64,000 nt of DNA, taken from assembly GCA_964645005.1 (NCBI GenBank), contig CAZXYS010000006.1:4741-68740 (forward strand), read 5' to 3'. Position numbers and translations under genes: made by a program. This DNA is from an uncultured Hyphomicrobiales bacterium (lineage in GTDB: Bacteria > Bacteroidota > Ignavibacteria > Kapaibacteriales > UBA2268). This document shows positions 9,835 through 39,274 of this stretch, in pieces. The first letter of the stretch is position 1. The number at the start of each line of letters is the position of its first letter. The notes beneath the pieces are model-generated. The model saw nothing but the letters and a program-made list of their open reading frames with translations. It was not told the origin of the DNA and searched no databases.

Positions 9835-12800
9835 TTATCTGCTAACAACAAAGCTCCTTGTCAGTACATTATCACCGGCGCTAAGCCTGAAGTAATACAC
9901 GCCGGGAGCTAAATCTTCAGTGTTGACATCTATTCCCAGGTTTCCTTTTCCTGCCAATCCATGCTTCACCATTTTCATGAATTTACCTTCGGCATTGTAT
10001 ATCTCCAAAGAGAATTTGGAAGGTTCAGGCAGATAAATATTTAATTTAGTTGAATTTGCCGCAGGATTGGGACTGTTCTGTTCCATGACCACACCGCCGG
10101 ACATTGTCCTGTCGGGAACTGATGATGGATCAATACCAACTCCGGATAAGTTCATTTCATAATTTTTGCCAGCCACGTCAGTCTTAACAATCAATTTGGC
10201 TTTTCTTATACCTTCTTTTTCAGGAGTGAACTGTAAGCGTACAATCCCCTTTTGATTTGGCTCCACATAATCCGGTTTGCCAAGGAAGAATCCAAATTCG
10301 TTTTCTTCGGTATCTTCCAAAGGTTGAATAGTCAGTTCAGTGAAATGTACATCAATTTCTCCGGTATTCTCAAATTCCACATTTTGCAGATCTTTACTTC
10401 CAATATTCGTGGTGTCGAATTCAACGTTCTCATCTGATAACAACTCGATGTTCTGGTCTGCATCATTAGGAACATATTTAAAATTAAAATTGCTTACCCA
10501 TGAATCAAATTCCCAGACCTTAACTTCAAACCCTGGATTAACAACAACTGCTCCGGACTGAGCTCCGACAGACTGTTCACTTAGCACAGGTGTCCAGCTT
10601 TCGCCCATGTCGTCAGTCCAATAAATTTCACCCCCTGAGCATAGAACGTAAAACTTATCACTTCGGGGCAATGAGAAGAAATGAACCGGCTGAAGGGCGA
10701 AATCAGAGAAATTAAATACGTTCTTTTTCCATGTTTTTCCGCCATTTGTTGTTGATGCTGCCAACTGTTCTCCCTCGTGATCCGATTCAGTATAGATGGC
10801 TATGCCGTTATTTTTATCATAAAAGCCTAATTTTAAAATAAAGCCATTATTATAAACTGTTGACTCATCCCATGAGGCACCTTTATTGCCGGATTTATAG
10901 ACTCTTCCTTTCGACGTTCCGAACCATACATCCGTACCTAAGCGGAAGTGGCTGCCGACAAATCCATTTTCGTCATTCAGCGGGGGAGGAATATTATCGA
11001 CACGTGACCAGTTTTTGCCGCCGTCAGTTGAGCGAGCAACACCCCAATCAGCACCAATAGGATCACCCAAAAACAATCCTTCCCTATCATCAAAAAATAT
11101 TATCTCGTTAATAAAATTAGTAATTCCCTGAATATTATTTACCTGCCAATTGTTCCCGCCATTAGTGGTCTTAAGTACTCTTGCATCGCCGCCGCTTGTC
11201 TTTGATGATACTGCAAAAGCTGTGTTTTTATCAATCGGTGCTATCGAGAAAAATGGATCTCCGTTTAGTGTATTGGTTGAAGAATTTGTACTGGGATTAT
11301 AGCGATAGTATACTGGTAATGTATAATATCCGTAGGCTAAAGCATATCCTGCAGCCCAAACGGAATTATCATCGGTCAATTTCGCTGAGGTCCATCTCAG
11401 GTTCATGTTGTTGGGATATTTGGTGACTGTTGACAAGCGATTGTTGCTGGTCATTAAAATGGGCAAATTTAATATCTCATAATCAACATAGTCGCTGCTT
11501 TCGTACGTTAGAGTAAGTTTAATTTGTCCTCTAAACCATGGATTCATCTCGTTTAGCTGCATCCTGAGTGTAAATTCCTTCGATTTATCTTTAGCCAGGA
11601 AACCAAGATTGAATTCAGTTTTATTGAATTCGACAAAATTATTAACGCTGGATAATTTTACTTTCAGATTCGAAGCATTTGCCAGATAGTTTGTTACTTC
11701 GATATTAACACTTGTTTTTTCGTAATCATTAATAGCATCAGAGCCGACGAATTCTACATTGGTAATAGCTATACCCGGTACATTTTTACCAGGATTATTG
11801 CCGTTATAGTCAAGTGCTTCAAAAGCGTTTATCCTGCCATAAAACAGAGGTTTATAAGCGGGATTGCTGGTCAGTACATCGTCAGATGTACTTCTGATCT
11901 GTTTCATAAGATGAATAGGGCTCCAATTAGGCTTAAAAGATTTCAACAGCGCCATAACCCCCGCTACTACAGGTGATGCCATTGATGTTCCGCTTTGATT
12001 ACCATAGCGGTTATTCATCAAAGTGGAATAAATGTTGTGCCCCGGAGCGTAGATATTAACCGAATTACCAATATTGGAAAAACCTGCCACACCATCATTG
12101 TTTGCGGTAGCTCCAACAGTGAAAACATTGTCATAAGCTGCCGGATACTGAGGATTTGTATCAATATTCTGAAAATTATCATTACCGGCTGCAACCACAA
12201 CTACGGCACCCATATCCATAGCTTGATTTATTACATCCTGCTCGGCAGGGCTGGAACCAGGTCCACCCCAGGAACAGTTAATAACGTCAGCGCCTAATTC
12301 CGCTGCATAGATGATTCCCTGATATCCATGTGTGATAGCCGGTCGTCCGCCCTCATCCCCGGATACTTTGACGGGAACAAATGAACAATTGAATCCCGGA
12401 GAAAGCACCCCGGTACTGTTATCCGTCACAGCAGCGGCACAGCCCGCAACATGAGTTCCATGATTGTTATTTGCGTCATTTGGTTTTACAATCGAGTCAT
12501 TTCTGGCAAGGTCCCATCCATGAACGTCATCCACATAACCGTTTTCATCATCATCTTTGCCATTATTGGGAATTTCGTTTGGATTTGTCCAGAGATTTTC
12601 TTTTAAGTCTTCGTGATCTGTGTCAGTACCTGAATCGACGATCCCTATCAAAATATCTTTGCTGCCTTTGGATATATCCCAGGCTTTTTTCAGTTCGATC
12701 TTGTTTGTCATCCATTGCCTGTTTTGGGATGGATCGTTAGGTGTATATTCAAATGGATATCTCATGAAAACCGGAACGGCATATACAATCTCAGGATTTT

Positions 12801-13287
12801 TCATAAGCTCTTTGCAGGCGTCATAAGCATCCACCGGTGAAGAATATTCCACCTTATATATTCTGCTTATACCGTGCTTGTCCGCCGATTTCAGATCGCC
12901 TTCTCCATATTTTGCGAATGGCTGGCGAATTTCCTTTATGTTAAGATCCTCGATCGAACTCTGCAATATCATCGAGCGAAAGCCTTTATCTTCCTTTGAT
13001 ATTTTATAGTATCCCTTAGTTTTTATATGGATAGTGTTTTCCTGATAATATTCCTTGTCAACTATAGGGATATTGTAGATTTTTGCAGGCTTGTATGTGT
13101 TTGGTCCTGTTTTTACTCCTGGTATTACTATCTTATAGGCAATCTTTTGCCCGTCGCCGGGAATATATTTCGGGGAATCGTTCTTTTTTCCCTGATAACT
13201 TAATGGTGAGAGTGAGAAGAGAGGGATTGTAAGAATAAATCCCATTAATACTGTCAAAGATATAAATATTCGTCTAAAGTCTTTCAT
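9835..13287 (-). CDS. Subtilisin-family (S8) serine peptidase with C-terminal BNR-like propeller and T9SS sorting domain
   Basis: Catalytic triad motifs GIVDSGTD (Asp), HGTHVAG (His), GTSMASPVVAG (Ser). Later Asp-box-like repeats (TTNGGNNWQ, STDGGKNWS, TTNGGKTWK, TDDMGESWT). C-terminus NSPNPAANSTKLNIYL...GVYYFRL matches a T9SS CTD. Confidence 0.85.
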   Translation of the reverse strand: MKDFRRIFISLTVLMGFILTIPLFSLSPLSYQGKKNDSPKYIPGDGQKIAYKIVIPGVKTGPNTYKPAKIYNIPIVDKEYYQENTIHIKTKGYYKISKEDKGFRSMILQSSIEDLNIKEIRQPFAKYGEGDLKSADKHGISRIYKVEYSSPVDAYDACKELMKNPEIVYAVPVFMRYPFEYTPNDPSQNRQWMTNKIELKKAWDISKGSKDILIGIVDSGTDTDHEDLKENLWTNPNEIPNNGKDDDENGYVDDVHGWDLARNDSIVKPNDANNNHGTHVAGCAAAVTDNSTGVLSPGFNCSFVPVKVSGDEGGRPAITHGYQGIIYAAELGADVINCSWGGPGSSPAEQDVINQAMDMGAVVVVAAGNDNFQNIDTNPQYPAAYDNVFTVGATANNDGVAGFSNIGNSVNIYAPGHNIYSTLMNNRYGNQSGTSMASPVVAGVMALLKSFKPNWSPIHLMKQIRSTSDDVLTSNPAYKPLFYGRINAFEALDYNGNNPGKNVPGIAITNVEFVGSDAINDYEKTSVNIEVTNYLANASNLKVKLSSVNNFVEFNKTEFNLGFLAKDKSKEFTLRMQLNEMNPWFRGQIKLTLTYESSDYVDYEILNLPILMTSNNRLSTVTKYPNNMNLRWTSAKLTDDNSVWAAGYALAYGYYTLPVYYRYNPSTNSSTNTLNGDPFFSIAPIDKNTAFAVSSKTSGGDARVLKTTNGGNNWQVNNIQGITNFINEIIFFDDREGLFLGDPIGADWGVARSTDGGKNWSRVDNIPPPLNDENGFVGSHFRLGTDVWFGTSKGRVYKSGNKGASWDESTVYNNGFILKLGFYDKNNGIAIYTESDHEGEQLAASTTNGGKTWKKNVFNFSDFALQPVHFFSLPRSDKFYVLCSGGEIYWTDDMGESWTPVLSEQSVGAQSGAVVVNPGFEVKVWEFDSWVSNFNFKYVPNDADQNIELLSDENVEFDTTNIGSKDLQNVEFENTGEIDVHFTELTIQPLEDTEENEFGFFLGKPDYVEPNQKGIVRLQFTPEKEGIRKAKLIVKTDVAGKNYEMNLSGVGIDPSSVPDRTMSGGVVMEQNSPNPAANSTKLNIYLPEPSKFSLEIYNAEGKFMKMVKHGLAGKGNLGIDVNTEDLAPGVYYFRLSAGDNVLTRSFVVSR

Positions 13288-21526: not shown

Positions 21527-21665
21527 CATAATCAAACCGGATTTTGCATTAGGACATAAACAATCTCTTGTTCCCCCTCATCACCAGCCCTTCTCCCGCC
21601 GGGAGGAGGGTGTTAGTGATGAGGGAATTCTTATAATGAATTTTCTCATCTAACACTTTTGTAAG
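21527..21665 (+). repeat. MITE-like hairpin repeat, family 1, short copy A
   Basis: aacccggattttgcat...ccccctcatc.ccagcccttctcccgccgggag...gatgagggaattcttataatgaattttc. Related to copies at 24079-24262, 28780-28965 (reverse) and a partial copy at 53262-53320. Confidence 0.7.
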
Positions 21666-23901: not shown

Positions 23902-24078
23902 AGTATCCGTTTTTTAATGAACATATTGTGGTTGACTTAACTTTAGTTTTCTTGTGCCTGTTTCTTTTTAGATCGAACCAACAGTTAATTATACAATTTA
24001 CAAATTTTAGTGACGATTTATATAAGTTATATGTTTTAATGTTTTGTAATTAATTCGGATAACTGAAAAATTATTATG

Positions 24079-24262
24079 AACCCGGATTTTGCATCAGAAC
24101 AAAAACAATCTCTTATTCCCCCTCATCCTCAGCCCTTCTCCCGCCGGGAGGGGTGTAAGAATTTCTTTTTACTCTGAAAGTCCCTTCTCCACTTGGGAGA
24201 AGGGTTTTAGGAATGAGGGAATTCTTATAATGAATTTTCCGGGTTAATGCTATTTTTGTATT
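24079..24262 (+). repeat. MITE-like hairpin repeat, family 1, full-length copy B (~180 bp)
   Basis: Long imperfect palindrome ccctcatcctcagcccttctcccgccgggagg ... cccttctccacttgggagaagggttttaggaatgaggg. Lies in the dxs/pcm divergent intergenic region. Confidence 0.7.
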
Positions 24263-27872: not shown

Positions 27873-28547
27873 ATGTGTGGTAGATTTGCGCTGTCGCCGC
27901 AGACTGGCGATATAGAGAAGCTGGTGCCCGGATTGCGGGTGGAAGTTGACATTCCGCCGCGGTATAATATTGCGCCGACGCAGGATGCAGCTTCAATTCT
28001 CAATGATGATCAGAAAGCGGTGAGTTACCTGCGCTGGGGGCTTATCCCATTCTGGGCGAAGGATCCGGCAATTGGCAATAGGATGATAAATGCCAGAGCG
28101 GAAACAGTTACGGAGAAACCGGCGTACAAAGGTCCGTTCAAGAAAAAGCGTTGTTTGGTGCTTGCTACGGGCTATTACGAATGGAAGAAAGAAGCGGGCA
28201 GCAAGAGGAAAATTCCTTATTTCATCAGGCTGAAGTCGCAAAAGCCGTTCACTTTTGCGGGGCTGTGGGATAACTGGACTGATGAGAACGGAAAGGATGT
28301 GCAGTCCTGCACCCTGATCACAACGGAAGCGAATGATGTTACGTCTGAAATACATCATCGGATGCCGGTCATTATTTCGCCGGAAGCGAGGATGGATTGG
28401 CTGGACAGCGTCGCTGCTGATGTAGAGAAACTTAGCAGCCTGCTGGTGCCCTACGAGGAGGAGCCGATGGAGGCTTATGAAGTTTCAGCGCTGGTGAATA
28501 ATCCGGGTAATGATACGCCGGAGTGTATCAAGCCGGTGGATGGGTGA
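27873..28547 (+). CDS. SOS response-associated peptidase (SRAP; YedK/HMCES family abasic-site processing protein)
   Basis: Begins MCGRF (catalytic Cys2). 224 aa. Conserved WGLIPFWAKD and ETVTEKPAYK blocks. Confidence 0.85.
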   Translation: MCGRFALSPQTGDIEKLVPGLRVEVDIPPRYNIAPTQDAASILNDDQKAVSYLRWGLIPFWAKDPAIGNRMINARAETVTEKPAYKGPFKKKRCLVLATGYYEWKKEAGSKRKIPYFIRLKSQKPFTFAGLWDNWTDENGKDVQSCTLITTEANDVTSEIHHRMPVIISPEARMDWLDSVAADVEKLSSLLVPYEEEPMEAYEVSALVNNPGNDTPECIKPVDG

Positions 28548-28779
28548 AAGATTAATTGGAGTGGTTCTTAAATCGTTATTGTCTATCCTTCGACATCGCC
28601 CAGCTAAAGCAGGATTTCGCTTCATAAAAAAAGTAGAGACATACCCCTGGTCTGTCACAAAAAAAAGGTTATACTTGGGTGGAGTTGAAGTGCGGCACGA
28701 TTTCCACAATTATGAAACAGCCTCATCTATAACATATTACTTTTTTATAAAAATTTTGGTATTTTTATCCCGGAAAATT

Positions 28780-28965
28780 CATTATAAGAATTCCCTCATC
28801 CCTAAATCCCTTTTCCCAAGTGTAGAAGGGACTTTCAGTGTAATAAGAAATTCTTACACCCTTCTCCCGCCGGGAGAAGGGCTGGGGATGAGGGGGAAAA
28901 GAGATTGTTTATGTTCTAATGCAAAAATCAGGGTTTAATGTAACATCCGGATTAAGATGACGCTT
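28780..28965 (-). repeat. MITE-like hairpin repeat, family 1, full-length copy C (inverted)
   Basis: Its reverse complement aligns along its length with copy B (aatccggatgttacat...ccccctcatccccagcccttctcccgccgggagaagggtgtaagaatttctt...gggatgagggaattcttataatgaattttccgg). Confidence 0.7.
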
Positions 28966-29034: not shown

Positions 29035-32000
29035 CTATGGCAAAATAACTATCTTAGCCACAGATTTTCTTGATTGCTTATTTACGGATAAGAAATACAG
29101 CCCCGGCTGTAAATCATTTATTTTGGAAATGTTCACAGTCCTTGTATTTCGCCCTGAATCATAAAACCTGCTGCCGCTTGAATAGATCTCATTACCCATA
29201 GCATCCCTCAGTTTAATGTTAACGTATCCAGCCTCCGGATTTTCAAAAGTGACCATAAATATATCCACCGCCGGATTAGGATAGACTTTGAGATTTAAAT
29301 CTTTAGCGGAACTGTATTCCATCACCCCGGTGTACACCGAATTCTTTCTGCCCGGCGTGCCGTTCATTACGTACGATGCCTGCCACGACTCGGGCAGCGA
29401 ATTGTCCAGCCCCGGGTTCTTCAATTCCATTGTCAATCCGGTTTCAACACAGTTTCCCGGCCAGGGGGAAGAGGGCAGATATTCCACTTTGTCGACAAGC
29501 TCGTCATTGGAATCATATAATCTTACCGCATCATCAGTCCCAAATCCGTAAGTGAAATCCTTAGGATAATGCTCAACATTGGGATGCACACTCTCGAAAT
29601 TATTTATATCCCTGCAAATAACCATGTATTCATCACTTTTGATATTCGTTTCCTGGTCAAAAATGAAGATATGGGAATCATCGTCATCTTTAATCTTCCA
29701 GCCGCTGATATTGATATCGTAATCATCAGCATTGTACAGTTCAATCCAGTCTTTGCTGTCCCTTTCGTCGGGCGGAGACTTATACATTATTTCGTTTATG
29801 ATAATTTTGCCTTCATATTGATGGATTTTATCCTCGAATTCAGCTTTCAATGTGACATTCTCAGGTAAATTAACTTTTAACTGCGGCAAACGTGCTTCCA
29901 TAGTATCGGAGAATATGGAGCGATCGCTGATCCATCGCTTGAATTCCATGCCTTCCGGGGGGGTTGCTTCCAATTCAACCGGCACTCCCTGGAAATAGAT
30001 TCCATTCCACGGAAACTCGTCAATGTTAATTGAATTCACTCTGATCTCACCGCCAGTGTGATTTGCATTTATTTCAAGTTTTGCTGTTCCGGTTAAGTTG
30101 AAATACTCAGCATAATGATCAGGTAAATAATTTAAACGAAGCTCATAGAATTTTTTTATTGACTCAATTTCATCTTCCCAATCAATAGCTGCTGAATCCC
30201 ACCTTTTTCTGTGCCTAATGATTTGTGGTCTGATAATATTTGCCAGACTATCTACTATTGGTACAACATTTTCAGCCTGCAGTACCGTGTTCATTAAATC
30301 CGCACTTTTATTGATGAATTTATGCCTAAACACCATGTTTTCCAAAAACTTACTAAAAATTGTCGGGAACGGCCATTTTTGTTTTAAAGTAAACTTAAGC
30401 ATATTATGGTTAAGCATGTATGCCCGGGAAGTACCGTCAAGATCATTTAGAATCCACCGCCATTTCCCATCTAATGAATCTGAGCGCCAATATTTTAGAT
30501 TTTTATAGGGCCAATCAAGATTTGTATTATAGAATTCAATGATGGCGTATTCCATAATGTTTTCAATATCTACACTTCTATTAATAAATTCATAGGAACC
30601 TGGTTTGTTAAAATCCATAGTTTCAATACTGTCATACATATTAAATAACTTAATTCCATCGCCATGTAATCTACCGTTAGCATCTTCATACAAATCAATT
30701 GTGTTTTTTGGGATGTCATATTTTAGACTGATTTGATCTTCATGTATTCTCTCTCTTATATTTTCGATCCCCCAGTATTCGCCATTCAGGAAAACAATGG
30801 CGGGGCTAAAAGCCATTGCATCAAGATTGTGGAAATCTTCTGCCAAAACAGCACAAATCCCATCTCTTATTATGCTGCTTTTCCATTCCGTACCGCCGTT
30901 ACGAACAATTAGGTGATCATATTTGTCCATTCCTTTATCCCCGAAAAAGGGATAATCAAAATATTTTTCACCGTAAATACTTCGCGCGTATAATCTCACT
31001 GATTTTTGCGGATGATATCTTGATGCATGACCGTGTACTCTCGCCCCCGCCCCCGATTCATACTTTAATTCCTTATCATCTCCCCATAACTCGAAATTGA
31101 CCGGTATTTCAATATCTTTGAATAAGTTATCTTTCACGAAAATGCCGTTCTCCTTGTTCCATAGATCCTCCGGGTCAGCAGACAAAGATATTACCTGCAA
31201 CGGAATGTCTTCATCAATGAAGTAAGTGTTGGATACTATCCTGCCGGGTAAAAGCGCATCATTGAATGCTCTGGCTCTTATAAGTGTCGTCGTATCGATT
31301 GTGATCGTTTCGCCGGTATATCGTATCGAGCCGCTGTCAGGCTCAGAGCCGTCTTTTGTATAATAGATATTAGCTTTATCATCATTGACACTTAATGTTA
31401 CCGTTTTATTCCCTTCGAACCAGCCGCCTTTATTTGAAAATATAGGGTCTGCGGTTCTTCCGGGGCAGCCTTGTAAATTTTCTTTTTCTGGTGTTGGATT
31501 CGGGCAAAATGAAAATTCGCCTTCTCCATCGGGGAATCTACTATAGGAAATATCCGTTATCTGATCGGTAAATATGACTTTATCTATTAATTCACCTCTC
31601 GAATTCCATAGAAATAACGATTCTGATTGTCTGTTAAGTTTAAAATCCGTATGTAATTCTCGTGATAAATAGCTTCTGCCTTCTTCGCCGGCGTTGAATT
31701 CAATGTGTTTGAATTTCTCAGGTGAAAAATCTTCCCCGTTGATTTTCAATTCCGAAACCGTTAGTTTTGACATTTGATCTCTATTACCGCTTCCAAAGGC
31801 TATACCAAGATAGATCGTGCCTTCCGGCATTGGAAGATTAATTTCAGCGCCGCAGTACCAGTGTACTCCGTCAGCATTAATGTATCCAAAAAGAGAATCC
31901 CCCCTGCGCTTTAACTTTATGTAGTAACTTGGATATTCCACTTCGACATTCCAAAAAGGCACTATCTTGGGCCATTCTCTTTCTCTGGTCCTGAAATGGA

Positions 32001-32538
32001 ATTTGTAGCCCTTCATTCGCGGGCTTTCGCATACCATAGCGCCATACCTGCAATCTTCAGTCAATTTCTCCCGTACCATCAGACCTGCTTTTGCATTATC
32101 CGCAGCGAAGCGCATAGCATTGAATTTTGCCTCTATTTCAAAATCCCCCTGAATTTCAATATAGTCAAACCTGATGCCGTCAGTTCCATCATAATATCCA
32201 AAGCCCCAGCCGGAGGACTCCATGATATAATTATCCGTGCCTCTTCTGTCCAGTCCCGAAGCATAAACCATCAATCTCTCACCCGGTTCAACTCTTCTGT
32301 CAGGAATTTCCCATGCTTCCTCAAAATTATTATTATCGCTTACCCTGTATCCCTTTAAATTGACCGGACTATCACCGTTGTTGTATAGCTCAAACCAGTC
32401 AGGGGTCTCCATATTTTCATCATAGTAGCAGCTATGGTTGGAGGCTGCGATTTCGTTGATTTTGATATCGGCTGCTGTACTGTCAATTACAATAACGATC
32501 AATGATAGGAATAGTACAAATCTCCGCTTTAATTTCAT
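29035..32538 (-). CDS. CotH kinase-family protein flanked by lamin-tail domains, with T9SS C-terminal sorting domain (LTD-CotH-LTD-CTD), paralog 1
   Basis: N-terminal LTD (IKINEIAASNHSCYYDENMETPDWFELYNNGDSPVNLKGYRVSDN). Central CotH-like region (LIVRNGGTEW...VFLNGEYWGIENIRE...WRWILNDLDGT). Second LTD (IINEIMYKSPPDERDSKDWIELYNADDYDINISGWKIKDDD). C-terminal KVYPNPAVDIFMVTFEN...GLYFLSV CTD. Confidence 0.7.
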   Translation of the reverse strand: MKLKRRFVLFLSLIVIVIDSTAADIKINEIAASNHSCYYDENMETPDWFELYNNGDSPVNLKGYRVSDNNNFEEAWEIPDRRVEPGERLMVYASGLDRRGTDNYIMESSGWGFGYYDGTDGIRFDYIEIQGDFEIEAKFNAMRFAADNAKAGLMVREKLTEDCRYGAMVCESPRMKGYKFHFRTREREWPKIVPFWNVEVEYPSYYIKLKRRGDSLFGYINADGVHWYCGAEINLPMPEGTIYLGIAFGSGNRDQMSKLTVSELKINGEDFSPEKFKHIEFNAGEEGRSYLSRELHTDFKLNRQSESLFLWNSRGELIDKVIFTDQITDISYSRFPDGEGEFSFCPNPTPEKENLQGCPGRTADPIFSNKGGWFEGNKTVTLSVNDDKANIYYTKDGSEPDSGSIRYTGETITIDTTTLIRARAFNDALLPGRIVSNTYFIDEDIPLQVISLSADPEDLWNKENGIFVKDNLFKDIEIPVNFELWGDDKELKYESGAGARVHGHASRYHPQKSVRLYARSIYGEKYFDYPFFGDKGMDKYDHLIVRNGGTEWKSSIIRDGICAVLAEDFHNLDAMAFSPAIVFLNGEYWGIENIRERIHEDQISLKYDIPKNTIDLYEDANGRLHGDGIKLFNMYDSIETMDFNKPGSYEFINRSVDIENIMEYAIIEFYNTNLDWPYKNLKYWRSDSLDGKWRWILNDLDGTSRAYMLNHNMLKFTLKQKWPFPTIFSKFLENMVFRHKFINKSADLMNTVLQAENVVPIVDSLANIIRPQIIRHRKRWDSAAIDWEDEIESIKKFYELRLNYLPDHYAEYFNLTGTAKLEINANHTGGEIRVNSINIDEFPWNGIYFQGVPVELEATPPEGMEFKRWISDRSIFSDTMEARLPQLKVNLPENVTLKAEFEDKIHQYEGKIIINEIMYKSPPDERDSKDWIELYNADDYDINISGWKIKDDDDSHIFIFDQETNIKSDEYMVICRDINNFESVHPNVEHYPKDFTYGFGTDDAVRLYDSNDELVDKVEYLPSSPWPGNCVETGLTMELKNPGLDNSLPESWQASYVMNGTPGRKNSVYTGVMEYSSAKDLNLKVYPNPAVDIFMVTFENPEAGYVNIKLRDAMGNEIYSSGSRFYDSGRNTRTVNISKINDLQPGLYFLSVNKQSRKSVAKIVILP

Positions 32539-32630
32539 TTCTCTACCCTTATTTTAATAATAACCTATATCTGTTACACCGTATCAAATCGCCATAATTA
32601 TAGTAATATTATTTTTCCTATCCCTTAATG

Positions 32631-35600
32631 TTATGGTAATACAATTATCTTTTTTACTACTTTTTCATGTGCTTTATTTACGGACAAAAAATATGTTCCT
32701 GAATTGTTGGCGGTAATTTTTGAAATATTCATAGAAATATCTGTTATGCCCTTCTTATAAAAGTGTTTTCCTGTGGAATAAATCTTATTGCCCAATACAT
32801 CATGCAACTCGATTACAACATGTCCCGAATTAGGATTTTCTATCGAGATATTTATCCTATCTGTTGCAGGGTTGGGATATATTTCCAAACTCAAACCAGA
32901 TATTGTCCTGTAGTCGAGAATGCCTACATAGACCGAATTCTTTCTGCCCGGCGTGCCGTTCATTACGTACGATGCCTGCCACGACTCGGGCAGCGAATTG
33001 TCCAGCCCCGGGTTCTTCAATTCCATTGTCAATCCGGTTTCAACACAGTTTCCCGGCCAGGGGGAAGAGGGCAGATATTCCACTTTGTCGACAAGCTCGT
33101 CATTGGAATCATATAATCTTACCGCATCATCAGTCCCAAATCCGTAAGTGAAATCCTTAGGATAATGCTCAACATTGGGATGCACACTCTCGAAATTATT
33201 TATATCCCTGCAAATAACCATGTATTCATCACTTTTGATATTCGTTTCCTGGTCAAAAATGAAGATATGGGAATCATCGTCATCTTTAATCTTCCAGCCG
33301 CTGATATTGATATCGTAATCATCAGCATTATACAATTCAATCCAGTCTTTGGAATCATTCTCGCCGGGCGGCGATTTATACATTATTTCGTTTATGACAA
33401 TTTTACCGTCATTTTGAAGCTCTGCTTTCTTGAATTTTGCTTTTAAATTCACAGAGTTTGGCAATGAAACAGTAATTTTGGGCTCAAAAGCATCAAGAGT
33501 ATCTTCGAAAATTGACCTGTCGCAAACCCATTTGTGAAAAATCAAATTATCTGTCGGTTCAGCTTCAATTTGAACGGGCACATCTTGAAAATAAATGCCA
33601 TTCCACGGGAATTCAGATATAGTAATATCATTTATCTTTATTTGCCCGTTTGATGGTTCAGTGTTTATTTTCAAATTTGCTATACCGCTTAATTCGAAGA
33701 AATCTACATAGTGTTTTGGAAAATGTTCTAATCTATGGTTTATATAATATTTAATGGCAAAAATCTCTCCTTCCCAATTAATTGCGGAAGTATCCCATTT
33801 TCTGCGATGCCTTTGTAAATTTGGTTTTATAATATCAACTAAACTGTCAACAATAGGCAATACATTGGTAGGTTGCAAAACCGTGTTTATAAATTCGGCA
33901 GTTTTATTAATAAATTTATTTTTGAATTTAGGATTTTTAAAAAAATTAAGTAAGATATCTGAAAAGGGACATTCTTTATGAGAAAGACGCTTAAAACAAT
34001 CATACTCGGCATTTCCCAAATAACCGAAGGTCCAGTCCAAATCATTTAATATCCATCTCCATTTGCCATCTAATGAATCAGAACGCCAGAATTTGAGATT
34101 TTTATGTGGCCAATCAAAATTGCCGGTATATAATTCCATAATTACATATTCCATGATATTATTGATATCCACATTTCTCTCAATAAAATCATAGGCTTCG
34201 TCCGCCTCAAAGTCAATTATCTTAATGCTATCAAGCAAACTATACAATTCTTTACCGTCCCCATGTAGTAATACGTTCGAATCTTCATACAGATCTATTG
34301 ATTTAGTTGGTATATCATGTTTCAAATGTAAATAATCTTCGTGGACTCTTTCTCTTATCTTTTCGATTCCCCAATACTCTCCATTAATAAACATTATAAC
34401 CGGCGTAACAGCCAATGCATCCAGATTTGAGAAATCATCGGCTAATATCGCGCAAATAGCATCTCTTATCAGGCTCTCTTTCCATTCGTTCCCACCATTA
34501 CGCAGTACAATGTGATTATATTTCTCCAGTCCTTTATCCCCGAAGAAAGGATATGAAAAATACTTGTCACCATAAATATTTCTGGCATATAATCTCATGC
34601 ACTTCTGGGGAAAACTTGTTGAACCTTGTCCATGTAATTTTGCTCCGGCTCGGGTTTCATATTTTAAGCTTTTATCAACTCCCCACAATTCAAAATTCAC
34701 CGGTATCTCTATATCAGCAGATATATTGCTATCATGGAAAATTCCTATTTCTTCATCCCAAAGGTCCTTTGGCTCAACAGCTATGGAAACTGTCGGTAAA
34801 GGAAATTCTTCTTCAATAAAGTAAGTATTCGATACAATGCGGCTGTTTAAAAGTTTATCATTGAAAGCTTTAGCCCTGATACAGGTTGTTGTATCGAGCA
34901 CAATAGTTTCACCTGTGTATTTGCTCGAGTTAATATCCGGTTCTGAGCCGTCTTTGGTATAGTAAATATCTGCATCTTGATCCGGCGAACTTATAGATAT
35001 CGTGGCTTTTCCTTCAAACCATCCGCCTTCATTTGAGAAAACCGGATCGGGGGTTTTTCCGGCAATTCCTTTGTCATTCTCTTTCTCGGGACTGGGTTTT
35101 GTGCAATAAGAGAAGTCTCCGCTGCCGTCAGGAAATCTGCCATAAGAAACATCCGTATACTGTTCCGAGAAAACAACTTTATCGAGCAATTCTCCTTTGG
35201 CATTCCATAAAAATAATGACTCTTTTTCTCTGTTTAGCTTGAAATCTGTATGCAATTCATTCGAATAATAGCTTCTCCCTTTTTTGCCTGTATTGAATTC
35301 TATAGAATGAAAATTTTCAGGTAAAAACTCTTTTCCATTAATTTTCAAATTAGTAACAGTCAATTTTGATATATGATTATAAGCACCACTCGTTAAAGCA
35401 ACTCCTAAATATACAGTATCCTGTTCCATTTGTAATTTTGCCCTTGCATCACAAGTCCAATGTACACCATCAGTACTAATATAGCAGAAAAGTGAATCAC
35501 CTTCCCTTTTAAATCTCATAAGATAGCTTGGATATTCAGCCAGAAAATTCCATAACCGGGATCTAATTGGTAACTTACCTTCATCGCTTCTATAAATAAA

Positions 35601-36188
35601 CCTGTATGCCTTTGTCACTTGGTTTTCACAAACCAGTGCAGCATATTTGCTGTCATCAGTCAATTTCTCTCTTACCATTAAACCGGCTTTGCTTTCGGGC
35701 AATGTTAATCTTAAAGCATCAAATCTTACATGTATCTCAAAATCGCCGCTTATCTTAATATAACTAAATCCAAACCCATCAATTTTATGCTTAAAAGAGA
35801 ATCCCCAGCCGGAGGACTCCATGATATAATTATCCGTGCCTCTTCTGTCCAGTCCCGAAGCATAAACCATCAATCTCTCACCCGGTTCAACTCTTCTGTC
35901 AGGAATTTCCCATGCTTCCTCAAAATTATTATTATCGCTTACCCTGTATCCCTTTAAATTGACCGGACTATCACCGTTGTTGTATAGCTCAAACCAGTCA
36001 GGGGGCTCCATATTTTCATCATAGTAGCAGCTATGGTTGGAGGCTGCTATCTCATTGATTACTATTTCTGCAATTGCACTTGAGCAGCAAATTATGAAAA
36101 AAAGTGTTCCTATTAAAATTTTCCACATTAGATACATAGATCCATTCCTTCTTTTGTTACAATGATCATTATAAACCGTAATAGTCAA
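32631..36188 (-). CDS. CotH kinase-family protein flanked by lamin-tail domains with T9SS C-terminal sorting domain, paralog 2
   Basis: Same architecture as 29035-32538. N- and C-terminal LTDs are nucleotide-identical to paralog 1 over ~265 bp and ~400 bp. The central CotH region and the CTD are diverged. True start is probably an internal Met (MYLMWKILIGTLFFIICCSSAIA signal, near 36137). Confidence 0.7.
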   Translation of the reverse strand: MTITVYNDHCNKRRNGSMYLMWKILIGTLFFIICCSSAIAEIVINEIAASNHSCYYDENMEPPDWFELYNNGDSPVNLKGYRVSDNNNFEEAWEIPDRRVEPGERLMVYASGLDRRGTDNYIMESSGWGFSFKHKIDGFGFSYIKISGDFEIHVRFDALRLTLPESKAGLMVREKLTDDSKYAALVCENQVTKAYRFIYRSDEGKLPIRSRLWNFLAEYPSYLMRFKREGDSLFCYISTDGVHWTCDARAKLQMEQDTVYLGVALTSGAYNHISKLTVTNLKINGKEFLPENFHSIEFNTGKKGRSYYSNELHTDFKLNREKESLFLWNAKGELLDKVVFSEQYTDVSYGRFPDGSGDFSYCTKPSPEKENDKGIAGKTPDPVFSNEGGWFEGKATISISSPDQDADIYYTKDGSEPDINSSKYTGETIVLDTTTCIRAKAFNDKLLNSRIVSNTYFIEEEFPLPTVSIAVEPKDLWDEEIGIFHDSNISADIEIPVNFELWGVDKSLKYETRAGAKLHGQGSTSFPQKCMRLYARNIYGDKYFSYPFFGDKGLEKYNHIVLRNGGNEWKESLIRDAICAILADDFSNLDALAVTPVIMFINGEYWGIEKIRERVHEDYLHLKHDIPTKSIDLYEDSNVLLHGDGKELYSLLDSIKIIDFEADEAYDFIERNVDINNIMEYVIMELYTGNFDWPHKNLKFWRSDSLDGKWRWILNDLDWTFGYLGNAEYDCFKRLSHKECPFSDILLNFFKNPKFKNKFINKTAEFINTVLQPTNVLPIVDSLVDIIKPNLQRHRRKWDTSAINWEGEIFAIKYYINHRLEHFPKHYVDFFELSGIANLKINTEPSNGQIKINDITISEFPWNGIYFQDVPVQIEAEPTDNLIFHKWVCDRSIFEDTLDAFEPKITVSLPNSVNLKAKFKKAELQNDGKIVINEIMYKSPPGENDSKDWIELYNADDYDINISGWKIKDDDDSHIFIFDQETNIKSDEYMVICRDINNFESVHPNVEHYPKDFTYGFGTDDAVRLYDSNDELVDKVEYLPSSPWPGNCVETGLTMELKNPGLDNSLPESWQASYVMNGTPGRKNSVYVGILDYRTISGLSLEIYPNPATDRINISIENPNSGHVVIELHDVLGNKIYSTGKHFYKKGITDISMNISKITANNSGTYFLSVNKAHEKVVKKIIVLP

Positions 36189-36210: not shown

Positions 36211-36885
36211 TTAATGCAACTCAAAGCTGTACTTATAATAAAAAGCCAGAATTCTCTCAATATCCGGCTCCTCAATATTGAATTCATTTTCATAGCGGTA
36301 GAAGATATCCAATTCATGACCATTGTCCAGATTAATCTCCACACCGACAGATAATTTGTATTTTAGAAAGCGGTCACCTTCATCCCAATTGAATCTGTAA
36401 AAGGCTTCGCTGCTCAAATACGGATTTACCGGACCTTTGAGATTGTAGTCTATCGCGAACTTATTGCGCCAGAAAACTCGATTATTATCGTCCACGCGAT
36501 ATTCTTTATCATAGCGGGAGCGAAGCTGAAATTCGAATCTATCTATTTCATATTCAAGATAGATTGTAGGTCGCAATTCATGCTGCTTTTTGTCAGTATA
36601 AAGATTATACCTGTAAGCTAAAGCCAGATCAACATATTTATGCAGATCGTATTGAAAACCATAGGATGCAATGCTGTTCTTCATATTTTTGCCGCTGTTT
36701 CGCAATCTTATCTCCTGTTCATATTCAAAATCAAGATCTTTGGATAGTTCAAATTCAATTTGCATTCCCATCCAGAATTCATTTTCATTATCCTGCGACT
36801 GTGCCGTAACAATACTGAAAATTATTAAACAACTGCAAAAAAATACTTTTCTTAAATATATATTCCTGTAATTTATAACATACAT
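36211..36885 (-). CDS. Putative outer-membrane beta-barrel protein (DUF2490-like)
   Basis: Signal peptide, then alternating hydrophobic/aromatic beta-strand-like segments rich in Tyr/Phe/Arg/Glu (YRYNLY, YLEYEIDRFEFQLRSRYDKEYRV). 21-22 bp gaps to both neighbours in the operon. Confidence 0.35.
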   Translation of the reverse strand: MYVINYRNIYLRKVFFCSCLIIFSIVTAQSQDNENEFWMGMQIEFELSKDLDFEYEQEIRLRNSGKNMKNSIASYGFQYDLHKYVDLALAYRYNLYTDKKQHELRPTIYLEYEIDRFEFQLRSRYDKEYRVDDNNRVFWRNKFAIDYNLKGPVNPYLSSEAFYRFNWDEGDRFLKYKLSVGVEINLDNGHELDIFYRYENEFNIEEPDIERILAFYYKYSFELH

Positions 36886-36906: not shown

Positions 36907-37515
36907 TTATTCATAATAAAATATCTTGACATTAGCCGTATCCTGCAGGAAGTCGATCCTGCCGATTTCATATCTGTGAATATTTAACCCTGTACGCTTT
37001 TTCAGATCATCCAGCAAAAGCGCATTATTCTCCGGTTTGATCAGTTCAATTTTCTCATAAGTAATATTCTTGCTAACTTCATTTTTTATCCAGGTCTTCT
37101 CAAGGAATAAAGCAAACGCAGCTATCAATACATTTACAAATAAGATGTTAACCAGCCCGATTTTCTGATTAGCTAAAGCATTGATAATAGCGACGCTTAT
37201 AGAAATAAATAGATAGGTCATTTCCTTGATTGGCACAGTTTCCGTTCTGTACCTGAGTATCGAAAAAATTGCAAACAGCCCGAAAGCAAATCCTATACTC
37301 AGATTGACACTGTTAAGCAGAAAACATACTATAAATACAGCAAGATTGAATAAGACCATCGTAAAGAGATAGTCCCTGTTTTGGGTTATTCTGAAATAGA
37401 TCTGCTTGGTGATGAAATAAACAAATATAAGATTCAGTATAAATCTTGGAATGAATTCCTTAATAAATGAAAATTCAAATAATTCATATTCTGCCATACT
37501 ATTTTGCCCCCACAT
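36907..37515 (-). CDS. DUF4956 family membrane protein
   Basis: Three-to-four TM helices followed by LRYRTETVPIKEMTYLF, which I recall as DUF4956-typical. Overlaps the VTC gene stop. Confidence 0.55.
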   Translation of the reverse strand: MWGQNSMAEYELFEFSFIKEFIPRFILNLIFVYFITKQIYFRITQNRDYLFTMVLFNLAVFIVCFLLNSVNLSIGFAFGLFAIFSILRYRTETVPIKEMTYLFISISVAIINALANQKIGLVNILFVNVLIAAFALFLEKTWIKNEVSKNITYEKIELIKPENNALLLDDLKKRTGLNIHRYEIGRIDFLQDTANVKIFYYE

Positions 37516-38280
37516 TACTTTTACAAATTTTTCGAATAGAAATTAGCTTGGACTTCAATCGATTGTATTTCACCTCGGGAACTGTCAATACCGTTCCAAT
37601 ACAATATTTGCTGAATGAAGCGGGTTTTATACCATATTCTTTCACAATATTGGCAAATCGGGAATTTTGATTCTTTCCCGGAAATTTAACCTCCGCTACT
37701 ACTAATCTCTCTAACCTGTTTTCATTTATTGAGTTTTCGAAATAGAGTTCATAGTCGAGTGTTACTTTTTCAGGGATGTTTTTATGAAGCAATGTAATTC
37801 TGTGATAGCTAACCTTTAGCTTTGAATGCAATCTATCGGTATCAATATTGAAAGTCTCCAAAGCTGTTTTTTTCAAAGCCCCGTTAATTCTCTCATTGAA
37901 CTGACCCTGAGGTTCTCTGTATTTTATAACTCTCTTCTTATTATTTTTATATTTTATCTCGAGGAATGTTCTATTTGACTCAACATAGGTTCTATAACGA
38001 ATCTTAATTCTATTTTGCTTGCCATTCACATGATTAGTGAATAAAAAATGATCTTCGGTATCAAAATAGTGATTTTCTATGGAGAAATGCCTTAAGCCAT
38101 CGATATCCAAAATCATATAGTCTCTTTGTAGGTTGGCAAGCAATTCCGGCAGTAAACTTACATTGAAGAAATACTTTTGCTCATACCTGTTGATAAGCTT
38201 TTGGCATCGAGTTGCTCAAGACTCGTTGGCTTGAAAGCACTTAGCATTCTTTTTGTTTCCCTATTTACCTTATTACCCAT
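37499..38280 (-). CDS. VTC (polyphosphate-polymerase/CYTH-like) domain protein, interrupted by an apparent -1 frameshift at an A4 run (~38199-38206)
   Basis: Downstream frame encodes ...LINRYEQKYFFNVSLLPELLANLQRDYMILDIDGLRHFSIENHYFDTED... (VTC N-terminal block). The only ATG starts (38280, 38247) are in the +1 frame, giving MGNKVNRETKRMLSAFKPTSLEQLDAKS before a TAA. The track ORF 37499-38143 starts at an internal TTG. Confidence 0.6.
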
Positions 38281-38669: not shown

Positions 38670-38894
38670 GTGGTAAAAATGCGCACTACAATCAACGTAA
38701 GAGATGATATTATCAGTGATATTATTGAATATTATGATGCAAAATCAAAAACCGAAGCCGTAAACAAGGCATTGGAAGATTTTGCTATGGACTTGAAAAG
38801 AAAAAAAATAATTGAGATCAGAGGCAAGATTGATATTGAAGATGATTTGGATGAATTGAAGAAAAAAGAAATCCAGGAGTTGAAAGAATTATGA
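38670..38894 (+). CDS. vapB: Type II antitoxin (VapB-like)
   Basis: 74 aa, charged C-terminus. Directly precedes the PIN toxin gene and overlaps it by 4 nt. Confidence 0.6.
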   Translation: MVKMRTTINVRDDIISDIIEYYDAKSKTEAVNKALEDFAMDLKRKKIIEIRGKIDIEDDLDELKKKEIQELKEL

Positions 38895-39274
38895 ATGAGC
38901 TTGTTATGATTGACTCAAGCTGCTGGATAGAGTATCTAAGAAATAGTGATCAAAAAATTGCTGATACCGTTGTTGATTTAATACAAAATCATCAGGCATG
39001 TATTTGTGGCATTATTGAAATGGAGATCGTACAAGGTATTCGGAATAAAAAACAAGCTGAATTAGTGTCTAATCTCTTCGATATACTCAAATATTATACT
39101 ATTGTTAGAGAAGATTTCATTAATGCCGGGAAAAGAATAATTGAAATGAAGAAAAAAGGTATTATAGTTGCTACTTCCGATTGCCTTATAGCTGAAATCT
39201 GTATAAAAAATAATCTTAAACTCTACACGAAAGATAAAGATTTTAATTACTTTCAAAAACTTAAACTTTATTAA
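38891..39274 (+). CDS. vapC: PIN-domain toxin (VapC family ribonuclease)
   Basis: 127 aa. MIDSSCWIEYL (first acidic residue), EMEIVQG, and ATSDCLIAEICIKNNLKLYTKDKDF (C-terminal acidic residues) match PIN domain topology. Confidence 0.75.
   Translation: MNELVMIDSSCWIEYLRNSDQKIADTVVDLIQNHQACICGIIEMEIVQGIRNKKQAELVSNLFDILKYYTIVREDFINAGKRIIEMKKKGIIVATSDCLIAEICIKNNLKLYTKDKDFNYFQKLKLY

What the first reader, a model, noticed from the sequence alone, without database searches (positions are those of the whole stretch)
29336..36065. Tandem CotH paralogs with nucleotide-identical terminal LTD segments and diverged cores: gene-conversion mosaic
Paralog 1 positions ~29336-29735 equal paralog 2 ~32932-33331 (offset 3596). 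This shows up as identical antisense ORFs 29288-29551/32953-33147 and 29569-29868/33165-33446. The 5' LTD segments ~32200-32465 and ~35800-36065 (offset 3599) are also nearly identical. In between, the CotH cores are only ~55-65% identical in protein, and the T9SS CTDs differ. Concerted evolution is confined to the lamin-tail (adhesion-like) modules while the catalytic core diverges. That pattern suggests selection for distinct kinase specificities on a common surface-anchoring scaffold. In an assembled genome it could instead be a collapse or assembly artefact.
Basis: seen in the sequence. Interest (0 to 1): 0.6.

Follow-up and report, generated by a model that had tools for sequence, protein, structure and literature searches.

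The report
Gene-conversion mosaic in tandem CotH genes
Two old, neighbouring copies of a secreted CotH-kinase gene share two stretches of identical DNA in their lamin-tail domains, a clean but ordinary example of gene conversion between bacterial paralogs.

Summary
Two tandem minus-strand genes encode proteins with the same nine-part architecture: CotH-A at 29035-32538 and CotH-B at 32631-36137. They share a 398-nt exact tract (29336-29733 = 32932-33329). They also share a 245-nt tract with one mismatch (32204-32448 = 35803-36047). Everywhere else they are about 64% identical in DNA. There, synonymous sites are saturated and dN is about 0.31, the same distance as to the single-copy ortholog in another genome. 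The tract edges are razor-sharp. Two independent per-run Logan assemblies end exactly 30 nt (k-1) inside one tract edge, so the repeat exists in the raw reads and is not an assembler product. The best explanation is RecA-type non-reciprocal recombination between old tandem paralogs. It probably keeps the two lamin-tail segments homogenised over the long term, while the lectin-kinase core, signal peptide and T9SS sorting domain have escaped. The same LTD-limited pattern recurs in two paralogs of an Ignavibacteria MAG. This is a new example of a known kind of process, of modest interest.

The parts
29035..32538 (-). CotH-A, the downstream paralog (1167 aa). Order of parts: signal peptide, split LTD with nested ConA-like/DUF1349-like domain, CHB_HEX_C/Fn3_assoc, CotH kinase, InlB-B-repeat-like domain, LTD, T9SS CTD.
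   Evidence: ORF. Pfam CotH 1.2e-33, LTD 1.2e-32, Por_Secre_tail 2.4e-12. AF2 model pLDDT 85.7. Foldseek top hit is B. cereus CotH 5jd9, E 1e-12.
32631..36137 (-). CotH-B, the upstream paralog (1168 aa from ATG 36137; the maximal ORF runs to TTG 36188). Same architecture as CotH-A.
   Evidence: P0001 is identical to the product starting at 36137.
29336..29733 (-). C tract, copy in A: 398 nt identical to 32932-33329. Encodes aa 936-1067 (LTD minus its first strand, plus the linker).
32932..33329 (-). C tract, copy in B.
32204..32448 (-). N tract, copy in A: 245 nt with 1 mismatch (32406) to 35803-36047. Encodes aa 31-111, the first part of the split N-terminal LTD.
35803..36047 (-). N tract, copy in B. 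Logan contigs L081 and L082 both stop at 36018, 30 nt inside its upstream edge.
32539..32630 (-). 92-nt spacer between B and A. No terminator-like site was found, so co-transcription is likely (inferred).
36211..36885 (-). DUF2490 gene, immediately upstream in the same operon-like array.
   Evidence: Pfam 4.4e-23. Same order in L001/L002.
36907..37515 (-). DUF4956 gene.
   Evidence: Pfam 9.7e-51.
37499..38143 (-). VTC-domain gene (polyphosphate-polymerase-like). Logan gene call suggests a start at 38116.
   Evidence: Pfam 9.6e-20. L081 gene table.

Best explanation
CotH-A and CotH-B are old tandem duplicates. Their lectin-kinase cores, signal peptides and T9SS CTDs have diverged as far as orthologs in another genome. 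Two segments, both inside the lamin-tail domains, are kept identical by non-reciprocal homologous recombination (gene conversion) between the direct-repeat copies, on the same or a sister chromosome.

Shown: the identity, the sharp edges, the saturated divergence elsewhere, and the presence of the repeat edge in raw data.

Inferred: the process is RecA-type conversion. It is probably long-running concerted evolution rather than two one-off events. The single-copy ortholog shares no identical run longer than 16 nt with either paralog. Sequences that had once diverged that far would therefore be poor recombination substrates, so the tracts most likely never diverged. Where the core had diverged, conversion stopped, which gives the sharp edges. 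Composition weakly suggests A as donor and B as recipient.

A consequence, also inferred: the 398- and 245-nt direct repeats 3.6 kb apart make the locus prone to unequal crossing-over, which would produce chimeric single genes or amplification.
For: - Two tracts are 398/398 and 244/245 identical, against 0.635 background identity. The permutation maximum run is 48.
- All four edges are sharp. Synonymous differences begin immediately outside them.
- NG86 dS is undefined (saturated) in every non-tract segment and 0 in the tracts. Core dN is 0.306 for A-B, 0.301 for A-ortholog and 0.323 for B-ortholog.
- NJ bootstraps leave the A/B/P0002 trichotomy unresolved in the core, but give 200/200 for A+B in the tracts.
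- LTD aa identity is 0.97-1.0 for A-B, against 0.54-0.73 to the best other genome. Core identity is 0.58 against 0.55-0.58.
- The longest A-ortholog and B-ortholog identical runs are only 15-16 nt.
- Logan contigs from two separate runs (SRR7048219, SRR7048218) are 100% identical to the window. Both end at 36018, which is k-1 = 30 nt into the tract that starts at 36047.
- GC3 of B's signal peptide, core and CTD is coherently low (0.27-0.32) and A's is higher (0.38-0.45). This supports the assembled phasing. The tracts (0.51) fit A better than B.
- A second lineage, UBA7675, shows core 0.41 aa, N-LTD 0.74 and C-LTD 0.92 (nt 85-96%). Both of its contigs end at the same point in the C-LTD.
Against: - Only one of the four tract edges has independent assembly support. 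Look-ups for the other predicted Logan fragments found nothing.
- No reads, strains or second assembly of this genome were available, so recombination itself is not observed.
- If the contig is short-read based, variants deep inside the 398-nt tract could have been collapsed, and identity could be slightly below 100%.
- Most other same-genome CotH pairs show no LTD homogenisation, so the process is not a general property of the family.
- The choice between long-running and recent conversion rests on an argument from substrate homology, not on data from several strains.
Confidence: 0.82

Rival explanations
1. Assembly artefact. A repeat node was collapsed or traversed twice, or the metagenome assembler joined strain variants of one gene into a false tandem pair, or it mis-phased which core goes with which flank.
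For: The source is evidently a metagenome-derived contig: P0001's longest contig is 133 kb and the relatives are all MAGs. A 398-nt exact repeat exceeds usual k-mer sizes. CotH genes often sit at contig breaks in other MAGs.
Against: - De Bruijn assemblers cannot create identity from 64%-identical DNA.
- The cores are far too diverged to be strain variants.
- Two independent single-run Logan assemblies branch exactly at the predicted tract edge.
- The one mismatch, 42 nt inside the N tract, shows that the copies were resolved separately.
- GC3 is coherent across the signal peptide, core and CTD of each gene, which argues for correct phasing.
Confidence: 0.05
2. Adaptive homogenisation. Conversion is the mechanism, but selection keeps the identity because both paralogs must present the same LTD surface to a shared partner. 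Selection also drives the lectin-kinase cores apart toward different substrates.
For: - Both LTD tracts, and only they, are homogenised.
- The same modules are the most similar in the UBA7675 paralog pair.
- Both paralogs keep every residue that is invariant across 17 homologs, including the D675 / N680 / D699 / D701 cluster in the CotH domain. Both therefore look functional.
Against: - There is no test of selection, because dS is saturated and dN/dS is undefined.
- Tract ends do not respect domain borders.
- In L010 and L062 the homogenised module is the CTD, not the LTDs.
- Flavobacterial tandem pairs show no homogenisation.
- A neutral homology barrier predicts the same picture.
Confidence: 0.2
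3. Recent modular origin rather than long-term homogenisation. One whole gene (probably B, whose GC3 is the lowest in the window) arrived by transfer or translocation. Its two LTD segments were then overwritten by A in two recent events. Alternatively, a recent full duplication was followed by replacement of the signal peptide, core and CTD.
For: B without its tracts has GC3 0.31. The window's genes average 0.41 +/- 0.06, and the tracts are at 0.51. A, B and the ortholog are equidistant, so B need not be a local duplicate.
Against: - At about 60-69% nt identity, with identical runs of at most 16 nt, initiating two separate conversions would be very inefficient.
- The three upstream operon genes have low overall GC like B (0.33-0.35 against 0.365). 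On that measure B, not A, looks like the resident member.
- The triple-replacement version needs more events.
Confidence: 0.1
4. Programmed cassette variation. The identical LTD flanks are recombination handles that allow the lectin-kinase core to be swapped between copies, or with incoming alleles, to vary a surface protein.
For: The layout of conserved flanks around a variable middle resembles expression-site/cassette systems. The products are T9SS-secreted surface proteins.
Against: Both copies are complete genes with their own signal peptide and CTD. There are no silent partial cassettes, no further copies in 64 kb, and no recombinase nearby. Swapping two cores in a tandem pair creates no new protein.
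Confidence: 0.03

Closest known systems
Segment-limited concerted evolution of Helicobacter pylori outer-membrane paralogs babA/babB and homA/homB (Pride & Blaser 2002, as cited in PMC2795765)
   Same: These are paralogous surface-protein genes in one genome. One segment clusters by strain (concerted evolution through intragenomic gene conversion), while another segment diverges or is allelic.
   Different: Those loci are dispersed, are documented across many strains, and are linked to antigenic and adhesin variation. Here the copies are tandem in one operon, there are two separate tracts, only one genome was seen, and the background divergence is far deeper (dS saturated).
[quoted passage not shown]
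   Same: Paralogs are more alike within a genome than to their orthologs, and this is maintained by homologous recombination.
   Different: The classical cases homogenise whole genes that encode the same function. Here only about 18% of the gene is homogenised and the remainder has diverged to ortholog-level distance.
VTC (polyphosphate-polymerase-like) / DUF4956 / CotH accessory gene module (Whitfield et al. 2020, PMC7112168; also in C. perfringens NELoc-2, PMC2879425)
   Same: The same three families are adjacent.
   Different: In those Gram-positive loci CotH is a single short protein next to the Pel genes. Here there are two 1170-aa T9SS-secreted multidomain CotH proteins plus a DUF2490 gene, and no pel genes were seen in the window.
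Bacillus CotH spore-coat kinase (PDB 5jd9/5jda; Nguyen et al. 2016, as cited in PMC7821199)
   Same: The Pfam CotH domain is present, and the predicted fold matches 5jd9 (TM 0.75 normalised to the target).
   Different: Identity is 14%. There was no sequence-level hit to the PDB entry. The protein is extracellular, T9SS-exported and multidomain, from a non-sporulating FCB-group bacterium. Substrates are unknown.

Membership tests
Gene-conversion / concerted-evolution mosaic between paralogs | Tract(s) of identity far above the paralog background, with abrupt edges | tested here: met
   Runs of 398 and 202+42 nt against a permutation maximum of 48. Background identity is 0.635. Edges are sharp.
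Gene-conversion / concerted-evolution mosaic between paralogs | Phylogenetic incongruence: paralogs group together in the tract but not, or not clearly, outside it | tested here: met
   In the tracts A+B group in 200/200 bootstraps. In the core, CotH, mid and CTD segments the A/B/P0002 relationship is unresolved, and dN is equal for all three pairs.
Gene-conversion / concerted-evolution mosaic between paralogs | The repeat is real in the DNA and not made by the assembler | tested here: inconclusive
   One of four edges is confirmed by two independent Logan assemblies that end k-1 nt inside it. The other edges are not on record. No reads were available.
Gene-conversion / concerted-evolution mosaic between paralogs | Recurrent homogenisation seen across strains or species (concerted evolution in the strict sense) | tested here: inconclusive
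   No second strain of this organism was found. An independent lineage, UBA7675, shows the same LTD-limited pattern. Most other pairs do not.
CotH kinase family (PF08757) | Pfam CotH domain above the gathering score in both paralogs | tested here: met
   117.4 and 117.0 bits against a cut-off of 23.8.
CotH kinase family (PF08757) | Atypical kinase fold of Bacillus CotH | tested here: met
   The AF2 model (pLDDT 85.7) has 5jd9/5jda as its top Foldseek hits, with E 1e-12 and TMt 0.73-0.75. Only A was modelled.
CotH kinase family (PF08757) | Catalytic aspartates equivalent to B. subtilis D228 and D251 | tested here: inconclusive
   D675, N680, D699 and D701 are invariant in all 17 homologs, including A and B. 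The spacing is similar to D228/D251 (PMC7821199). No residue-level alignment to Bacillus CotH was obtained.
CotH kinase family (PF08757) | Protein kinase activity | not testable with these tools
   Needs biochemistry.
T9SS cargo with type-A C-terminal sorting domain | Por_Secre_tail CTD at the extreme C terminus, plus an N-terminal signal peptide | tested here: met
   PF18962 scores 47.4 and 46.1 bits against a cut-off of 27. The profile hits solved T9SS CTDs 8glk/8glj. Hydrophobic N-terminal leaders are visible in both sequences.
T9SS cargo with type-A C-terminal sorting domain | T9SS machinery present in the genome | not tested
   Only a second CTD-bearing protein (subtilase, 9835-13287) was seen in the window.
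Cassette-type antigenic variation systems (pilE/pilS, vlsE, msp2 type) | One expression site plus silent, truncated donor cassettes | tested here: not met
   Both copies are full-length ORFs with their own signal peptide and CTD. There are no further LTD or CotH copies in the 64-kb window.
VTC / DUF4956 / CotH gene module | Adjacent genes of the three families | tested here: met
   The same order, with DUF2490, occurs in the ortholog loci L001 and L002. The module is described in PMC7112168.

The most novel reading that the evidence does not exclude
The two lamin-tail segments are kept nucleotide-identical over evolutionary time in several FCB-group lineages because secreted CotH paralogs must share one LTD-mediated docking or assembly interface. 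The partner could be the co-encoded DUF2490/DUF4956/VTC products or a cell-surface polymer. The lectin-kinase cores meanwhile specialise. In other words, this would be selection-maintained, domain-targeted concerted evolution that defines a modular 'common handle, different warhead' design for T9SS surface kinases.
Probability: 0.12. Interest if true: 0.6.

Novelty: new member of a known kind. Interest (0 to 1): 0.33.

Why it matters
The case shows very clearly how conversion and divergence can partition a single bacterial gene. About 18% of the sequence is held at 100% identity, while the rest has reached ortholog-level divergence, and the borders are only a base or so wide.

It also has practical consequences. 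Such tracts break short-read assemblies: several CotH contigs in public MAGs end inside these genes. They can mislead phylogenies and ortholog calls for this family. They also create direct repeats that predispose the locus to deletion or amplification.

The biology of the large T9SS-exported CotH / LTD proteins and of the VTC-DUF4956-DUF2490 module is unknown. The finding says which parts of the two paralogs are interchangeable and which are not, and that could guide experiments.

Tried and rejected
- **Source contig.** Look-ups of the source contig for A and for P0001 (= B) found nothing on record. The window's own genome seems to be withheld.
- **Genome scan with A alone.** It returned no relatives. 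The scan with an alignment gave 78 loci, none closer than 57%.
- **Metagenome scan.** An exact scan with 36 nt of the C tract gave 0 hits.
- **Protein search with the C-terminal 287 aa.** Only distant hits (at most 41% identity) came back. No fragments from other assemblies appeared.
- **Predicted Logan partial products.** I looked for the products expected if contigs break k-1 nt inside the other three tract edges. Those edges therefore remain unconfirmed.
NG86 dS is undefined (saturated) everywhere outside the tracts, so the test is uninformative.
- **Promoter and terminator scan.** Counts were no better than in shuffled sequence, and there is no terminator between B and A.
- **Rfam.** No family was found in the window, so there is no sign of an embedded RNA that could explain nucleotide conservation.
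- **Sequence searches of the PDB.** They did not reach Bacillus CotH. Only the fold search did.
- **Literature search for the SRA run and project numbers.** Nothing was found, so the environment is unknown.
- **Antisense ORFs as genes.** Rejected. They lie opposite a conserved 1167-aa gene and are identical only because the DNA is.
- **Database cluster of protein A.** Its 90% cluster has a 41-aa cold-shock fragment as representative. This is a database oddity. It explains why A did not find itself.
Full report
**What is there.** The region holds two tandem genes on the minus strand. CotH-A lies at 29035-32538 and encodes 1167 aa. CotH-B lies at 32631-36188 as the maximal ORF. B most likely starts at the ATG at 36137, because database protein P0001 (1168 aa) equals that product exactly.

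Both proteins have the same architecture:
- a signal peptide;
- an N-terminal lamin-tail domain (LTD). Pfam covers only profile positions 3-71 of it, followed by a weak DUF1349-like hit. The fold search shows a concanavalin-A-like jelly roll at that position, so this LTD is split by a nested lectin-like domain;
- a CHB_HEX_C/Fn3_assoc domain;
- a CotH kinase domain (Pfam 1e-33; the predicted fold's top PDB hit is B. cereus CotH 5jd9, E 1e-12, TM 0.75);
- an InlB-B-repeat-like domain;
- a second LTD;
- a type-A T9SS C-terminal sorting domain, which also matches solved T9SS CTDs.

The pair ends an operon-like array VTC - DUF4956 - DUF2490 - CotH-B - CotH-A. The single-copy ortholog loci L001/L002 have the same order. 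The VTC/DUF4956/CotH association has been noted before as an accessory module next to Gram-positive Pel operons (PMC7112168). All relatives come from Kapabacteria, Ignavibacteria and Bacteroidota-type MAGs.

**Check of the observation.** It holds.
- 29336-29733 equals 32932-33329 exactly (398 nt).
- 32204-32448 equals 35803-36047 (245 nt) except for one non-synonymous mismatch at 32406/36005.
- Outside the three longest runs the codon-aligned genes are 63.5% identical.
- In 5000 column permutations the longest identical run never exceeded 48 nt.
- All four edges are abrupt. Immediately upstream of the N tract the same amino acids (INEI) are encoded with different synonymous codons.
- The 'identical antisense ORFs' are a trivial by-product.

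**How old are the genes and how young the tracts.** Nei-Gojobori dS is undefined (saturated) in every segment outside the tracts and zero inside them. Core dN is 0.306 for A-B, 0.301 for A-ortholog (L002) and 0.323 for B-ortholog. NJ bootstraps do not resolve A, B and P0002 in the core, CotH, mid or CTD segments. In the tracts they unite A and B 200/200 times. The duplication is therefore about as old as the split from the nearest known genome, whereas the tracts are effectively undiverged (1 difference in 643 nt).

**Real or artefact.** The window's own genome is not searchable, but per-run Logan assemblies of the same organism are.
- Contigs L081 (SRR7048219) and L082 (SRR7048218) are 100% identical to the window. 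Both terminate at 36018.
- The N tract in B begins at 36047. A k=31 de Bruijn unitig coming from unique sequence must end exactly k-1 = 30 nt into a repeat, and that position is 36018.
- Two independent read sets thus contain two different sequences converging at precisely the predicted base.
- As a control, L080 ends in the same way in an unrelated intergenic repeat.
- The mismatch 42 nt inside the tract shows that the copies were resolved separately.
- GC3 is coherent within each gene: B's signal peptide, core and CTD are 0.27-0.32 and A's are 0.38-0.45. This argues that the cores are joined to the right flanks.
- The other three edges could not be checked. With short reads, rare variants deep in the 398-nt tract could have been collapsed.

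**Mechanism.** The pattern is the signature of non-reciprocal homologous recombination between direct-repeat paralogs. Two separate tracts are needed, because a heteroduplex cannot span a core that is 36% diverged.

I favour long-running concerted evolution over two isolated recent events. A and B each share no identical run longer than 16 nt with the ortholog. LTDs that had once diverged to that level would therefore offer no usable homology. The tracts most likely never diverged, while the rest of the gene escaped conversion and then diverged freely. Divergence itself then sets the sharp borders.

The borders do not follow domain limits. The N tract (aa 31-111) stops where the nested lectin-like domain begins. 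The C tract (aa 936-1067) begins after the first LTD strand and ends at the disordered linker before the CTD. This fits a homology-driven process better than module shuffling.

Tract GC3 (0.51) is far from B's background (0.31) and nearer to A's (0.39). The window's genes average 0.41 +/- 0.06. This weakly suggests A as the donor, or GC-biased conversion.

**Is it general?** Among the 78 related loci there were about a dozen same-genome CotH pairs.
- None has long exact tracts.
- In the Ignavibacteria MAG UBA7675 the two paralogs (L016, L023) show core 0.41 aa identity, N-LTD 0.74 and C-LTD 0.92 (85-96% nt). Their best LTD match in any other genome is only about 0.5. Both contigs stop at the same homologous position inside the C-LTD. 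That is what a longer identical tract would do to a short-read assembly.
- Contig L040 (Co_bin.282) carries the 3' part of one CotH gene and the 5' part of the next, with identical 127-nt ends. This is another tandem array with identical internal sequence.
- In the L010 and L062 pairs it is the CTD that is more alike than in any other genome.
- Flavobacterial tandem pairs are ordinary, and each copy has its own orthologs.

Segmental homogenisation therefore recurs in this family and often hits the LTDs, but it is neither universal nor exclusive to them.

The gene-conversion mosaic and its restriction to the LTD regions are supported. The adaptive gloss is not. The CTD, which in T9SS cargo is the secretion and anchoring signal (established knowledge), is among the most diverged parts. 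dN/dS cannot be computed. Both paralogs do retain all residues that are invariant in 17 homologs, including a D675/N680/D699/D701 cluster in the kinase domain. Both therefore look functional, but nothing here speaks to different specificities.

**Comparison with known cases.** The closest analogues are the segment-limited concerted evolution of H. pylori babA/babB and homA/homB (PMC2795765), and bacterial gene conversion generally (PMC6053082). The present case differs in four ways: the copies are tandem within one operon, there are two tracts, the background divergence is much deeper, and the gene family has no described instance that I could find. It is not a cassette-type variation system, because both copies are complete genes and there are no silent donors.

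**Verdict.** This is a confirmed and well-delimited gene-conversion mosaic, and very probably real. It is a new example of a known process in a poorly studied family of secreted CotH proteins. Interest is modest.

Noticed in passing
window 21528-21616, 24073-24247, 28765-28935 (inverted): A family of intergenic repeats, about 170 nt long (one shorter copy, about 90 nt), with nested palindromes (e.g. CCCTTCTCCCGCCGGGAGAAGGG). Copies are 87-92% alike. One lies 100 nt downstream of CotH-A. Logan contig L080 breaks at two of them. No Rfam match.
   Followed up: partly
window 54937-57036 and 57171-59237 (- strand): A second tandem paralog pair: two S9 prolyl-oligopeptidase-type peptidases with beta-propellers. 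They show only ordinary similarity (an 87-nt stretch at 78%) and no identical tracts.
   Followed up: partly
L016 12700-12993 and L023 3400-3694 (Ignavibacteria MAG UBA7675): Two CotH paralogs on different contigs both end at the same homologous position inside the C-terminal LTD. The last ~135 nt are about 93% identical, against about 40-60% in the core. This looks like an assembly break at a shared tract.
   Followed up: partly
L040 1-127 and 3439-3565 (MAG Co_bin.282): A 3565-nt contig with identical 127-nt ends. It runs from mid-CotH through the stop codon into the start of a next CotH gene. This is the signature of a tandem CotH array with identical internal sequence, at very low coverage (1.4x).
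   Followed up: partly
L010 9977-13465 and 13629-17081 (Kapabacteria chromosome OY762428.1): A tandem CotH pair with 37% aa identity overall, but about 85% nt identity in the last 40 codons of the T9SS CTD and 73% in part of the N-LTD. Here the homogenised part is a different module.
   Followed up: partly
window 32631-36137: With the tracts removed, CotH-B has the lowest GC3 of all large genes in the window (0.31, against a mean of 0.41 and sd 0.06). The SRAP gene at 27873-28547 has the highest (0.59). The cause is unknown.
   Followed up: no
window 38891-39274 and the ORF just downstream of it on the + strand (seen as L081 113-708): A VapB/PIN toxin-antitoxin pair sits directly upstream of the VTC-DUF4956-DUF2490-CotH array. 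The ortholog locus L001/L002 instead has rnpA-yidD-yidC there, so the array has a different genomic context in the two genomes.
   Followed up: no
protein database cluster of window:29035-32538:-: CotH-A is filed in a 90%-identity cluster whose representative is an unrelated 41-aa cold-shock-like fragment (P0122). This hides the protein from representative-based searches.
   Followed up: yes
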